This document shows, piece by piece, positions 20,200-23,111 of a stretch of DNA of 64,000 bases (position 1 is the first letter of the stretch; each line of letters opens with the position of its first letter). This stretch comes from Escherichia coli (lineage in GTDB: Bacteria; Pseudomonadota; Gammaproteobacteria; Enterobacterales; Enterobacteriaceae), in assembly GCF_003334385.1 (NCBI RefSeq), contig NZ_QOWN01000010.1. One strand, given 5' to 3'. The translations under genes and the position numbers were made by a program. Under the pieces are notes generated by a model that was not told where the DNA came from, ran no database searches, and saw only the letters and a list, made by a program, of their open reading frames with translations.

Positions 20200-20640
20200 A
20201 ACTTTTCCTTTATTCATCGCATGGACAATACGTACGCTTGAGATCAGGATTGTCTACTTTGAGTATAACATCCTTGTGAAATCTCCCTTTCCTCATACCG
20301 CTTGCACTATATACTGCGGGTAGGAAAGGCGCGCAGAGGGAAATATAAGATTGTTAACTATCCCCCTCTGGAAATACGACTTGTGAGCATAAGATAAATC
20401 TTAGCAAAATACAAATTAAAGATAAGGAAATTGTTACGAAAGCTATTAATTATTGTTGGTAATATAGTTTCAAGTGGTACTATAACTGGCTGTTAAATGG
20501 CATTTATAACTATTAGGTGCAGAGATATTCGCTTAAATGGATTAGTTTCTTTGTGGAAAAGTAACTGATGTTATAATGTATGATGTTGACTATTGCACTA
20601 TTCCAATAAAACCAGTCAGCTTTAAACAAGCAGCGTCATA

Positions 20641-21550: not shown

Positions 21551-21755
21551 TATCAGGCTCCCTCGTGGAGCCTTTTTTATATCTGCCTTATTTTTCTTCA
21601 ACGCTGTATGTATAGTAAGCGATAACCTGTTGATTATTGAATCTTTCGGGGAGATGGCTTATAACATTTCTTACCTGACCAGGGTACCGGGAACCAACAC
21701 CTTACTGGCGTGTTGCTGTCTTTTAAGACCAGAAGAGGTTAACAGTGAATATTGA
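21525..21755 (+). CDS. ymcE: small membrane protein YmcE (76 aa)
   Basis: ORF 21492..21755; recognised from MRRWISQNNIRLPRGAFFISALFFF. Confidence 0.75.
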   Translation: MRRWISQNNIRLPRGAFFISALFFFNAVCIVSDNLLIIESFGEMAYNISYLTRVPGTNTLLACCCLLRPEEVNSEY

Positions 21756-21918
21756 AGAGTTAAAAAAACAAGCCGAAACGGAAATCGCCGACTTTATCGC
21801 GCAAAAAATCGCCGAGCTGAACAAGAATACAGGGAAAGAAGTCTCTGAAATTCGCTTCACCGCACGAGAAAAAATGACCGGGCTTGAAAGTTATGATGTC
21901 AAAATCAAAATAATGTGA
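21745..21918 (+). CDS. gnsA: GnsA (57 aa), GTG start
   Basis: GTG at 21745; translation MNIEELKKQAETEIADFIAQKIAELNK...KIKIM; too short for the ORF track. Confidence 0.8.
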   Translation: MNIEELKKQAETEIADFIAQKIAELNKNTGKEVSEIRFTAREKMTGLESYDVKIKIM

Positions 21919-21966
21919 TTTTGTGAACATCACCCCGTGCGAGGTGATGTTCCGCTTGTTGCTAAT

Positions 21967-23040
21967 TTAGTGACCAATCATTGGCGCTTGTGGAATTAAG
22001 CGTCGGTACAATTCCTCCGGCACCGGGCTTTGCCATACTCCCGCATACATTGCGTAACCAATCACCGCAAACATAATCCCCAGAACCAGTAGCGTCATTA
22101 ACCAGCCAGACAACGCAAAGGCTTTTTTATTTGCCGCAGGTTTTTGCAGTGAAAAGGTCAATGTTGAGGCTACCGGACATGACTCTACGCAAGTCATACA
22201 GCCGGTACATTCCACTGTTCGTACCTGAATTAATTTATCGACCGGGATCCGTGATGGGCAATTTTTTGCGCATTTGCCACAGTCGATACAACTTTCGGCA
22301 TTGCGACGAATCTTAAACGGCGACAATAGCGAAACCACGCCCATCAGCGCGCCATATGGGCAAAGATAACGACACCAGGCATGGCGAATAAACAGGCTGG
22401 CAATCAGCAAAACGGTCACGCTGATTAATGTCGCGGTCCCCATATGACGAAAGAAATCGAGCATTTTAACGTCCATCACCACGCTGTAGGGCGACAACAT
22501 AAAATAGTGAATCGCCTGAGCGGGCATCAATAACGCGATATAGATAAAAAAACTCAACAGCAAATACTTCACGCCGCGCAGAGGAATATCCAGCCAGCGG
22601 GGAAGGACACATTGCCGACCAAACAGTTTGTTACCGAGATCGCCGATTAATTCAGAAAGCGTACCAACCGGGCATAACCATGAGCAAAAGGCCTTTTTGA
22701 GTAATAGACTGATGACGATAAAAGCGACCAATAACAGCATCGCGGCGGCGTGGACGGACGGTAACTGACCTGTTACAAGGCTATATTTCAGATTCATCAG
22801 CCCGGCAATCGGTAGCCAGCCTTCGATACCTCCCGGTCTGGCGACAAATGTCGTGCTACTTGCCGTTTCGTAATAGCGCACCCAATACCAGAACGTGATG
22901 GCAATATAAATATTCATTGCCAACAGTAATAATTGCGTCGCTTTACGCCAGGTCGTGGCATTACGCCAGTCATTCCACGGTAATTTGCCGCCCGTCGTGC
23001 CTGGCCGCCGCTGCCAGCGGGTTCTTTTATTCTCTGCCAT
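21967..23040 (-). CDS. yccM: polytopic membrane 4Fe-4S ferredoxin-type protein YccM (NapH-like)
   Basis: 357 aa; two CxxCxxCxxxCP motifs (CIDCGKCAKNCP, CTGCMTCVESCP) plus TM helices. Confidence 0.9.
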   Translation of the reverse strand: MAENKRTRWQRRPGTTGGKLPWNDWRNATTWRKATQLLLLAMNIYIAITFWYWVRYYETASSTTFVARPGGIEGWLPIAGLMNLKYSLVTGQLPSVHAAAMLLLVAFIVISLLLKKAFCSWLCPVGTLSELIGDLGNKLFGRQCVLPRWLDIPLRGVKYLLLSFFIYIALLMPAQAIHYFMLSPYSVVMDVKMLDFFRHMGTATLISVTVLLIASLFIRHAWCRYLCPYGALMGVVSLLSPFKIRRNAESCIDCGKCAKNCPSRIPVDKLIQVRTVECTGCMTCVESCPVASTLTFSLQKPAANKKAFALSGWLMTLLVLGIMFAVIGYAMYAGVWQSPVPEELYRRLIPQAPMIGH

Positions 23041-23111
23041 GATTTTGCCAGTCCGTTAAGTTGTATACCAAATGCCACTATTCTAGTTGTTCTTAACTGG
23101 CTGATATTGAT

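What the first reader, a model, noticed from the sequence alone, without database searches (positions are those of the whole stretch)
21967..23040. Membrane polyferredoxin YccM immediately upstream of the tor regulatory genes
YccM has two CxxCxxCxxxCP 4Fe-4S motifs embedded in a polytopic membrane protein, resembling NapH/MauN-type redox proteins. It lies next to torS but has no assigned partner and could be an orphan electron-transfer component.
Basis: partly seen in the sequence, partly recalled or inferred. Interest (0 to 1): 0.25.

Follow-up and report, generated by a model that had tools for sequence, protein, structure and literature searches.

The report
Known YccM membrane iron-sulfur protein
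This is the already annotated E. coli gene yccM, a NapH-like membrane iron-sulfur protein of unknown function; it sits next to torS only in Escherichia, while its conserved NsrR operator and its neighbours in other phyla tie it to nitric-oxide and nitrite stress rather than TMAO respiration.

Summary
Window 21967..23040 (minus strand) encodes the 357-aa protein YccM. It has two CxxCxxCxxxCP motifs, two CxxxCP (Fer4_5) motifs and five predicted membrane helices. The gene is present in 5417 of 5426 complete E. coli genomes.

YccM is a NapH-superfamily paralogue (26% identity to E. coli NapH), but it scores below every curated cut-off for NapH, NosR and CcoG. It also carries an extra fifth helix and a conserved periplasmic tail. 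Charge distribution puts the Fe-S clusters in the cytoplasm.

The tor link is not supported:
- yccM lies downstream of torS, not upstream.
- There are no TorR boxes near it.
- tor genes flank it only in Escherichia (2 of 15 Enterobacterales loci).

The best NsrR-matrix hit in the whole 64-kb window lies 17 nt upstream of yccM. Published ChIP data show NsrR binding there. The operator is the top hit of the locus in 14 of 16 enterobacterial sequences.

Elsewhere, homologues sit in Rrf2-yccM-nrfH-nrfA operons (Ignavibacteria). In Acidobacteria they lie beside Crp/Fnr, RIC/YtfE, qNOR and hemerythrin genes.

Best reading: a nitrosative-stress electron-transfer module with an unidentified partner. 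The gene is already known, and interest is modest.

The parts
21967..23040 (-). yccM coding sequence (357 aa plus stop), a membrane polyferredoxin
   Evidence: ORF list and translation; RefSeq annotation in E. coli genomes; Pfam Fer4_5 x2 plus dicluster domain
22669..22686 (-). First CxxxCP motif (aa 119-124, CSWLCP), directly after TM2 on the cytoplasmic side
   Evidence: Regex on the translation; C119, C123 and G126 invariant and P124 conserved in at least 90% of 65 homologues at 28% mean column identity; Fer4_5 E 2e-14
22357..22374 (-). Second CxxxCP motif (aa 223-228, CRYLCP), directly after TM4 on the cytoplasmic side
   Evidence: C223, R224, C227 and P228 invariant; Fer4_5 E 2e-9
22255..22290 (-). 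First ferredoxin motif CxxCxxCxxxCP (aa 251-262)
   Evidence: all four Cys invariant; Fer4_21/Fer4_10
22174..22209 (-). Second ferredoxin motif CxxCxxCxxxCP (aa 278-289)
   Evidence: C278, C281 and C284 invariant, C288 conserved in at least 90%
22792..22839 (-). Highly conserved first periplasmic loop/helix (aa 68-83, RPGGIEGWLPIAGLMN)
   Evidence: 12 of 16 residues invariant among 30 close homologues; R68, P69, L76 and P77 conserved across 65 diverse homologues; lies between TM1 and TM2 on the low-K+R side
21970..22116 (-). YccM-specific C-terminal extension: fifth transmembrane helix (aa 309-333) and periplasmic tail (W336 ... GH357). E. coli NapH has no counterpart
   Evidence: Hydropathy; AlphaFold helices 312-333 and 342-354; W336 and H357 invariant in A1; the NapH alignment stops at YccM residue 297 (hhalign) and NapH ends at aa 287
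23058..23080 (-). NsrR operator (11-1-11 inverted repeat, TAGTGGCATTTGGTATACAACTT), ending 17 nt before the yccM start codon
   Evidence: Top-scoring 23-mer in the whole window with a matrix built from 14 other published NsrR sites: 16.05 bits against 10.8 for the next best. The same site, with one base different, is listed as an NsrR ChIP-seq target in CFT073 and as a K-12 ChIP-chip target (PMC5320621). Conserved upstream of orthologues
23041..23111 (-). 71-nt torS-yccM intergenic region holding the operator. No terminator-like hairpin
   Evidence: Sequence; consensus scan finds no terminator or canonical sigma-70 match here; RNA fold z-score 0.20

Best explanation
yccM encodes a stand-alone member of the NapH/NosR/CcoG membrane-polyferredoxin superfamily. 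It has five transmembrane helices with the N-terminus inside and the C-terminus outside. Two CxxxCP motifs and a 2x[4Fe-4S] ferredoxin domain sit on the cytoplasmic face, and a conserved loop and tail sit on the periplasmic face.

It is not part of the Tor system. Its promoter region holds an operator for the NO-sensing repressor NsrR, so it belongs to the nitrosative-stress response.

Inferred mechanism: like NapH, it exchanges electrons with the quinone pool. It passes them through its cytoplasmic clusters to a separately encoded acceptor that deals with NO or nitrite damage. The leading candidate is a di-iron repair protein of the RIC/YtfE or hemerythrin type, or an NO-detoxifying enzyme.

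Shown: the anatomy, the family relationship, the operator and its conservation, and the gene contexts. Inferred: the direction of electron flow, quinol as donor, and the identity of the acceptor.
For: Anatomy:
- Motifs and five hydrophobic segments. K+R counts are 9, 5 and 13 in the proposed cytoplasmic segments and 3, 1 and 2 in the proposed periplasmic ones.
- AlphaFold model with pLDDT 94.2 and pTM 0.90, showing the same helices.

Family:
- NapH E 1e-26, NapH/MauN 1e-24, NosR C-terminal half 3.5e-21.
- 26% identity to E. coli NapH; hhalign probability 99.5%.

Regulation:
- NsrR ChIP-seq peak and predicted site at yccM in CFT073, and K-12 ChIP-chip (PMC5320621).
- A matrix built without the yccM site ranks this site first in the 64-kb window.
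- It also ranks a site in the 250 nt upstream of the orthologue first in the ~17-kb locus in Citrobacter (7 loci), Providencia (2), Pragia, Budvicia, Pectobacterium zantedeschiae, E. albertii and a second E. coli. It ranks second in L006 and in P. betavasculorum.
- The site sequence and its distance from the start (15-173 nt) differ between genera.

Context in other phyla:
- Ignavibacteria: 6 of 6 loci have yccM-nrfH on one strand, and nrfA follows in all six (in L084 only as a fragment cut by the contig end). NrfH scores 169 (cut-off 134) and NrfA 645 (cut-off 595). An Rrf2-family regulator lies 14-54 nt upstream in 4 of 6.
- A Bryobacterales locus has nrfH-nrfA-crp-yccM.
- Acidobacteria, of 56 loci: Crp/Fnr regulator in 22 (often adjacent), RIC/YtfE in 16 (TIGR03652, 249 against cut-off 205), quinol NO reductase in 8 (Pfam NorB_cytochrome_c plus COX1), hemerythrin in 6.
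- HAO-like multihaem genes lie within about 500 nt in the Chlorobiota and Bacteroidetes loci.

Phenotype: the delta-yccM mutant is hypersensitive to blue light, paraquat, H2O2, Cu/H2O2 and 0.5 mM nitroprusside (31% growth defect) (PMC11673782). It is also heat-sensitive, and this is complemented by a plasmid copy (PMC5828445).
Against: - No source I could read shows that yccM transcription changes with NO or in an nsrR mutant. PMC5320621 itself notes that some NsrR-bound sites exert little or no regulation.
- No promoter was mapped. The consensus scan finds no canonical sigma-70 site and no terminator after torS, so read-through from torS is possible.
- In Enterobacterales yccM has no N-oxide gene beside it.
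- Only 20 of 56 acidobacterial loci have such a gene within about 5-8 kb, and those loci are phylogenetically related.
- The nitroprusside phenotype is unspecific: 36 of the 64 mutants tested were sensitive.
- Quinol oxidation, cluster number and potentials, and any protein partner are untested.
Confidence: 0.55

Rival explanations
1. YccM is a NosR/NapH-style membrane helper for a periplasmic N-oxide reductase such as cytochrome c nitrite reductase Nrf. It would feed or maintain the periplasmic enzyme through its conserved periplasmic loop and tail, rather than serve a cytoplasmic acceptor.
For: - yccM-nrfH-nrfA operons in 6 of 6 Ignavibacteria loci and one Bryobacterales locus.
- Periplasm-facing residues are strongly conserved: R68, P69, L76, P77, D190, W336 and terminal H357.
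- From established knowledge, NapH works with periplasmic NapG and NosR supports periplasmic NosZ.
- nrfA is also an NsrR target in E. coli (PMC5320621).
Against: - All cofactor-binding cysteines are on the predicted cytoplasmic side.
- YccM has no periplasmic cofactor domain, unlike NosR with its FMN domain.
- In Enterobacterales yccM is not linked to nrf.
- In Acidobacteria the linked genes are mostly cytoplasmic or membrane NO-defence genes (RIC, hemerythrin, qNOR).
- NrfH is itself the quinol dehydrogenase of NrfA.
Confidence: 0.15
2. YccM is a CcoG-type cupric reductase. It would reduce cytoplasmic Cu(II) to Cu(I) with its two [4Fe-4S] clusters for hand-over to CopZ/CopA-type exporters.
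For: - A review names YccM as a CcoG homologue lacking the C-terminal Ig-like domain (PMC7558416).
- The architecture matches: a fifth helix follows the ferredoxin domain.
- The delta-yccM mutant shows a 97% growth defect in CuCl2 plus H2O2 (PMC11673782).
Against: - Similarity to the CcoG model is weak: 33.9 bits against a cut-off of 316.7, much weaker than to NapH or NosR.
- No FixG_C/Ig-like domain.
- None of the recurrent neighbour families annotated across 84 loci is a copper gene.
- The conserved regulator is NsrR, not a copper sensor.
- The Cu/H2O2 condition was designed as a hydroxyl-radical stress, and other mutants in the panel (for example atpA and ubiC) were equally sensitive.
Confidence: 0.12
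3. YccM is an orphan electron-transfer component of the TMAO (Tor) respiratory system, co-expressed with torS. This is the reading suggested by the first reader.
For: - yccM is adjacent to torS and on the same strand, with a 71-nt gap.
- No terminator is detectable between them.
Against: - The linkage exists only in Escherichia: 2 of 15 Enterobacterales loci and none elsewhere.
- In Citrobacter amalonaticus cbpA/cbpM-like genes (DnaJ and MerR_2 Pfam hits) lie about 4 kb upstream of yccM, and no tor genes are present in the locus.
- TorR boxes occur only at 27651-27713.
- From established knowledge, TorC carries electrons from menaquinol to TorA, so no component is missing.
Confidence: 0.03
4. 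YccM is the membrane Fe-S component of the Tus sulfur-relay system for tRNA 2-thiolation, as classified in the thermotolerance screen.
For: [quoted passage not shown]
Against: - The paper gives no experiment linking YccM to thiolation.
- No family model, domain or gene neighbour found here relates to sulfur transfer.
- The label looks like a database pathway assignment. My inference: tusE is yccK, a neighbouring gene name.
Confidence: 0.02

Closest known systems
NapH (quinol dehydrogenase ferredoxin subunit of periplasmic nitrate reductase; NF007013 / TIGR02163)
   Same: Shared core: four transmembrane helices, two CxxxCP motifs after TM2 and TM4, and a C-terminal 2x[4Fe-4S] ferredoxin domain. 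YccM is 26% identical to E. coli NapH over YccM 32-288, E 2e-17, hhalign 99.5%. NapH is the best-scoring NCBIfam model.
   Different: - Scores 93.5 and 87.4 bits, far below the cut-offs of 234 and 213.
- Not in a nap operon and has no NapG partner. E. coli keeps a separate napH.
- YccM adds a fifth helix and a conserved periplasmic tail.
- YccM has its own strongly conserved RPGGIEGWLPIAGLMN loop.
- Regulated through an NsrR operator.
CcoG / FixG / RdxA (cupric reductase for cbb3 oxidase assembly; TIGR02745)
   Same: Same superfamily. Same order of elements, including a transmembrane helix after the ferredoxin domain. Cytoplasm-facing clusters (PMC7558416).
   Different: - Only 33.9 bits against a cut-off of 316.7.
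- Lacks the periplasmic Ig-like domain.
- No ccoNOQP/ccoHIS context. E. coli has no cbb3 oxidase (PMC7558416).
- No copper genes among the recurrent neighbours.
NosR / NirI (membrane Fe-S flavoprotein required for N2O or nitrite reductase function; NF046105)
   Same: The C-terminal half of NosR aligns with YccM 101-284 (E 3.5e-21). Both are associated with N-oxide metabolism.
   Different: 75 bits against a cut-off of 1000. YccM lacks the whole N-terminal periplasmic FMN-binding half. No nos or nir genes are adjacent.
NsrR regulon of Enterobacterales (hmp, ytfE, hcp-hcr, ygbA, yeaR-yoaG, nrfA ...)
   Same: In-vivo NsrR binding at the yccM promoter (PMC5320621). An 11-1-11 operator overlaps the region just upstream of the start codon and is conserved in orthologues.
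   Different: NO- or NsrR-dependent expression of yccM, and a role in NO tolerance, are not shown in anything I could read. It is the only membrane polyferredoxin in that list.

Membership tests
Fer4_5-type membrane polyferredoxin superfamily (NapH/MauN/NosR/NirI/CcoG) | Two Fer4_5 modules (TM helix followed by CxxxCP) plus a 2x[4Fe-4S] dicluster domain | tested here: met
   Pfam Fer4_5 at 97-142 (2e-14) and 201-246 (2e-9); Fer4_21/Fer4_10 at 243-293; motifs invariant in 65 homologues
NapH (NF007013 equivalog; TIGR02163 NapH/MauN subfamily) | Score at or above the curated cut-off of the family model | tested here: not met
   93.5 bits against 234; 87.4 bits against 213.05
NapH (NF007013 equivalog; TIGR02163 NapH/MauN subfamily) | Encoded in a nap (or mau) operon next to napG | tested here: not met
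   Neighbours are gnsA and torS. The genuine napFDAGHBC cluster is elsewhere in E. coli
NapH (NF007013 equivalog; TIGR02163 NapH/MauN subfamily) | Four-helix protein that ends after the ferredoxin domain | tested here: not met
   YccM has a fifth helix at 309-333 and a tail to 357. E. coli NapH is 287 aa, and the alignment ends at YccM residue 297 in the profile comparison (288 in BLASTP)
CcoG/FixG/RdxA (TIGR02745) | Score at or above the curated cut-off | tested here: not met
   33.9 bits against 316.7
CcoG/FixG/RdxA (TIGR02745) | C-terminal periplasmic Ig-like (FixG_C) domain after the fifth helix | tested here: not met
   No such Pfam hit. Only 24 residues follow TM5. PMC7558416 states the same
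CcoG/FixG/RdxA (TIGR02745) | Cu(II) reductase activity | not testable with these tools
   Needs biochemistry
NosR/NirI (NF046105) | Full-length match including the N-terminal periplasmic FMN-binding domain | tested here: not met
   75.2 bits against 1000. Only profile positions 481-661 of 680 are matched
NsrR regulon | NsrR bound at the promoter in vivo | not testable with these tools
   Reported by ChIP-seq in CFT073 and ChIP-chip in K-12 (PMC5320621). Taken from the paper, not tested here
NsrR regulon | 11-1-11 NsrR operator in the promoter region, above background | tested here: met
   16.05 bits at 23058-23080, the best of 63,978 positions in the window, with 10.8 the next best. The matrix excluded the yccM site
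NsrR regulon | Operator conserved upstream of orthologues | tested here: met
   Rank 1 in the sequence searched for 14 of 16 enterobacterial sequences (this window plus 15 loci) and rank 2 in the other two, at scores of 9-23 bits
NsrR regulon | Expression derepressed by NO or in an nsrR mutant | not tested
   No expression data found in the main text or the held supplement of PMC5320621
Tor (TMAO respiration) system | TorR boxes (CTGTTCATAT repeats) in the promoter | tested here: not met
   Exact boxes only at 27651-27713. None within 4.5 kb of yccM
Tor (TMAO respiration) system | Conserved linkage with tor genes across genomes | tested here: not met
   TorS/TorT lie within 8 kb only in E. albertii and E. 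coli. They are absent in 13 other Enterobacterales loci and in all 69 loci of other phyla

The most novel reading that the evidence does not exclude
The YccM subfamily (NapH core plus a fifth helix and periplasmic tail) is the missing membrane-bound reductase of the nitrosative-stress repair system. It would draw electrons from the quinol pool and re-reduce di-iron repair proteins of the RIC/YtfE or hemerythrin type, or nitrosylated Fe-S targets directly. This would explain why it travels with RIC, hemerythrin, qNOR and nrfHA genes, and with Rrf2, NsrR or Crp/Fnr regulators, in at least three phyla.
Probability: 0.17. Interest if true: 0.55.

Novelty: already known. Interest (0 to 1): 0.28.

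Why it matters
YccM is one of the conserved E. coli 'y-genes' with a clear redox anatomy and no function. The result removes a tempting but false lead, the tor neighbourhood. It replaces that lead with a testable one. A conserved NsrR operator, together with repeated linkage to nitrite reductase, RIC/YtfE, NO reductase and hemerythrin genes in distant phyla, points to NO and nitrite stress.

If the link is confirmed, it would give a physiological electron route for Fe-S repair or NO detoxification. It would also define a third functional branch of the NapH/CcoG superfamily. No experimental structure of the membrane module of this superfamily was found in the PDB searches made here.

Tried and rejected
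- A search for the idealised NsrR palindrome with up to 3 mismatches found nothing. The site is degenerate, so a matrix from published sites was needed.
- The simple promoter/terminator scan gave no sigma-70 match upstream of yccM and no terminator after torS. The fold of the intergenic RNA is no better than shuffles. The transcription unit therefore remains unresolved.
- The first AlphaFold run, with 30 close homologues, was poor (pLDDT 66.6, ferredoxin domain below 50). It was discarded in favour of the 65-sequence alignment.
- Foldseek against AFDB50 returned only unnamed '4Fe-4S binding protein / YccM' entries.
- A YecH/DUF2492 gene as partner was rejected as general. It lies upstream only in two betaproteobacterial MAG species.
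- Three look-ups of more distant representatives gave contigs too short, or contexts uninformative.
- The 452-aa acidobacterial neighbour that I suspected to be NnrS has no Pfam or NCBIfam match.
- The supplement of PMC5320621 held no yccM expression values.
- The primary CcoG paper (PMC6800367) is not held.
- The 'sulfur relay' label of PMC5828445 was considered and rejected for lack of any supporting evidence.
Full report
**1. What is there**

Window 21967..23040 (minus strand) is an ATG-started ORF of 357 codons. It also carries two CxxxCP motifs: CSWLCP at 119-124 and CRYLCP at 223-228.

Pfam assigns two Fer4_5 modules (E 2e-14 and 2e-9) and one 2x[4Fe-4S] dicluster domain at 243-293. The 1.7 kb around the gene is 95-100% identical to the annotated yccM-torS region in 5417 of 5426 complete E. 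coli genomes. RefSeq calls the product '4Fe-4S binding protein'.

One correction is needed. torS (23112..25856) is on the same minus strand, and its stop codon is 71 nt before the yccM start. yccM is therefore downstream of torS in the direction of transcription.

**2. Anatomy and topology**

Hydropathy gives five membrane segments: 36-54, 96-114, 159-177, 200-218 and 309-327. Lys+Arg counts are:
- 9 in the N-terminus, 5 in the TM2-TM3 loop and 13 in the TM4-TM5 segment that holds the ferredoxin domain;
- 3, 1 and 2 in the alternate loops and the C-terminal tail.

By the positive-inside rule the N-terminus, both CxxxCP motifs and both [4Fe-4S] motifs face the cytoplasm, and the C-terminus is periplasmic.

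An AlphaFold model built on 65 diverse homologues is confident (pLDDT 94.2, pTM 0.90) and shows the same helices, plus short periplasmic helices at 72-90 and 342-354. Across those homologues (28% mean column identity) the invariant residues are 11 of the 12 motif cysteines plus P77, G126, R224, P228 and G230; the twelfth, C288, is conserved in at least 90%. C144 is not among the conserved positions. R68, P69, L76, D190 and W336, all on the periplasmic side, are conserved in at least 90%. Both faces of the protein are thus under selection.

**3. Family**

The best curated models, all below their cut-offs, are:

| Model | Bits | Cut-off |
|---|---|---|
| NapH | 93.5 | 234 |
| NapH/MauN | 87.4 | 213 |
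| NosR (C-terminal half only) | 75 | 1000 |
| CcoG | 33.9 | 317 |

Against E. coli's own NapH, YccM is 26% identical over residues 32-288 (E 2e-17), and the profile comparison gives 99.5% probability. NapH ends after the ferredoxin domain, whereas YccM continues with TM5 and a conserved tail.

YccM is therefore a distinct branch of the NapH/NosR/CcoG superfamily, not a member of any named family. In domain order it resembles CcoG without the Ig-like domain, as a review already noted (PMC7558416). The branch is large and widespread. There are 325 representatives at 50% clustering with E below 1e-30. Matches occur in Enterobacterales, Betaproteobacteria, Acidobacteria, Ignavibacteria, Zixibacteria, Bacteroidetes and Firmicutes, and none has a characterised function.

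**4. The tor neighbourhood is accidental**

- TorR boxes (CTGTTCATAT) occur as three exact copies only at 27651-27713, between torR and torC.
- Among 15 Enterobacterales loci with up to 8 kb of flank, TorS and TorT are found beside yccM only in E. albertii and E. coli.
- Citrobacter (7 loci), Providencia (2), Pectobacterium (2), Pragia, Budvicia and one further locus (L006, an unidentified metagenome contig that I grouped with the Enterobacterales) have unrelated and mutually different neighbours, and yccM stands alone.
- In Citrobacter amalonaticus, genes with the DnaJ and MerR_2 Pfam hits expected of cbpA/cbpM lie about 4 kb upstream of yccM. In E. coli these genes lie beyond torCAD. There are no tor genes in that locus.

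**5. What is conserved instead**

Published ChIP-seq in CFT073, and ChIP-chip in K-12 as cited there, place the NO-sensing repressor NsrR at the yccM promoter. The predicted site is TAGTGGCATTTGGTATGCAACTT (PMC5320621). The window has the same site with one base changed, at 23058-23080, ending 17 nt before the ATG.

I built a symmetrised matrix from 14 other NsrR sites listed in that paper, leaving yccM out.
- The yccM site is the best of all 63,978 positions in the window: 16.05 bits, with 10.8 the next best.
- The same matrix was scanned over each ~17-kb orthologue locus. It puts its top hit in the 250 nt upstream of yccM in Citrobacter amalonaticus, six other Citrobacter, two Providencia (22.65 bits each), Pragia (19.3), Budvicia (21.2), Pectobacterium zantedeschiae, E. 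albertii and a second E. coli.
- The hit is second-best in L006 and in P. betavasculorum.
- The expected chance of a top hit landing in a given 280-nt stretch of 17 kb is under 2% per locus.
- Site sequences and distances to the start (15-173 nt) differ between genera, so the operator is being maintained rather than merely inherited.

**6. Gene context outside Enterobacterales**

I clustered naive ORFs from 84 loci by all-against-all BLASTP and named the recurrent neighbour families with NCBIfam and Pfam.

- Ignavibacteria (6 of 6 loci): the YccM homologue is followed on the same strand by nrfH (169 bits, cut-off 134) and nrfA (645 bits, cut-off 595). In L084 nrfA is seen only as a fragment cut by the contig end. 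In 4 of 6 it is preceded at 14-54 nt by an Rrf2-family regulator with a Cx6Cx5C motif. NsrR is itself an Rrf2 protein.
- One Bryobacterales contig has nrfH-nrfA-crp-yccM.
- Acidobacteria (56 loci, many on short contigs):
  - 22 have a Crp/Fnr regulator, often directly adjacent.
  - 16 have the di-iron Fe-S repair protein RIC/YtfE (TIGR03652, 249 bits, cut-off 205).
  - 8 have a quinol-dependent NO reductase (Pfam NorB_cytochrome_c plus COX1).
  - 6 have a hemerythrin-domain protein.
  - 12 have an unnamed 452-aa membrane protein.
- HAO-like multihaem cytochromes lie within about 500 nt in the Chlorobiota and Bacteroidetes loci.
- None of the recurrent neighbour families that I annotated is a copper gene.

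Three different regulator types (NsrR, another Rrf2, Crp/Fnr) and four kinds of N-oxide enzyme or repair gene therefore converge on this family in different lineages.

**7. Phenotypes in the literature**

The Keio delta-yccM strain fails to grow at the critical high temperature and is complemented by a plasmid copy (PMC5828445). It is hypersensitive to 415-nm light. It shows growth defects of 80% with paraquat, 63% with H2O2, 97% with CuCl2/H2O2 and 31% with 0.5 mM nitroprusside (PMC11673782). These results fit a redox-stress role but are not specific, since 36 of the 64 mutants tested were nitroprusside-sensitive.

The 'sulfur relay' label in the first paper has no experimental or sequence support that I could find.

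**8. Mechanism**

Shown:
- a five-helix NapH-type core with cytoplasmic clusters;
- an NsrR operator at the start of the gene, conserved across Enterobacterales;
- recurrent linkage to NO and nitrite genes in other phyla.

Inferred from what is established for NapH (quinol oxidation) and CcoG (cluster-mediated reduction of a cytoplasmic substrate): when NO inactivates NsrR, YccM is made and links the quinone pool to a cytoplasmic acceptor involved in NO damage control. The RIC/YtfE or hemerythrin-type di-iron proteins are the best candidates by co-localisation and co-regulation.

Confidence in the NO-stress link is about 0.55. Confidence in the specific acceptor is below 0.2.

Rivals are a NosR-like helper role for periplasmic Nrf-type reductases (0.15), a CcoG-like cupric reductase (0.12), a Tor component (0.03) and sulfur relay (0.02).

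**9. Caveats**

- I found no data showing that yccM mRNA responds to NO or NsrR, and the ChIP authors warn that some bound sites are silent.
- No promoter was mapped, and no terminator separates torS from yccM.
- The acidobacterial loci are related to each other, and only about a third carry an N-oxide gene within reach.
- More distant family members sampled gave no informative context.

**10. Verdict**

The feature is real and correctly described, but it is an already annotated, already partly studied gene. The suggested tor connection is not supported. What this analysis adds is comparative evidence that the family belongs with nitrosative and nitrite stress, which makes an orphan gene testable. 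Novelty is 'already known' and interest is 0.28.

Noticed in passing
window 20218-20640 (gfcA-cspH intergenic); L001:17812-18509: The window lacks the IS1D copy that the K-12-derived strain ER1709 carries between gfcA and cspH. The gap is 423 nt here against 1219 nt there, so the window is not from a K-12 lineage with that insertion.
   Followed up: partly
hit H1 (NZ_CP136018.1, strain GDSC2239PM), region matching window 21700-23400: An IS5 transposase splits yccM into two annotated pieces, a natural knock-out. The protein database also holds large clusters of truncated YccM (266-269 aa, one with 524 members). The gene is therefore dispensable in some strains, or often fragmented in assemblies.
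   Followed up: no
window 21967-23040, plus strand (antisense to yccM): A 2026 paper (PMC13170351) reports a TadA-dependent A-to-I RNA editing event in an antisense transcript named 'yccM-as'. I did not locate the site.
   Followed up: no
L035:12456-13814 (+) and homologues in 11-12 acidobacterial loci: A conserved 452-aa polytopic membrane protein sits in the same NO-defence islands as the YccM homologue, RIC and qNOR. It has no Pfam and no NCBIfam match, so it is a possible unnamed NO-related family.
   Followed up: partly
L008:7581-7832, L010:7627-7875 (also L021, L020): A YecH-family metal-binding protein gene (DUF2492, TIGR03853, 108 bits against cut-off 66) lies about 130-170 nt upstream of the YccM homologue on the same strand. 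This occurs in two betaproteobacterial MAG species, between parB and the atp operon, and is not seen elsewhere.
   Followed up: yes
L029, L030, L048, L051, L062, L070, L075: In one acidobacterial subgroup the YccM homologue has a second type of Crp/Fnr regulator divergently upstream (57-119 nt in five of the seven loci, about 2.4 kb in L051) and a convergent cysE-cysK pair immediately downstream. This may link to cysteine supply, but it is unexplained.
   Followed up: partly
window 27651-27713: Three exact CTGTTCATAT TorR boxes lie in the torR-torC intergenic region, as expected for the torCAD promoter. They served as a positive control for the box search.
   Followed up: yes
window 20406-20494: The second- and third-best NsrR-matrix hits in the window (10.8 and 10.3 bits) fall in the AT-rich gfcA-cspH intergenic region. 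This is probably a compositional effect.
   Followed up: no
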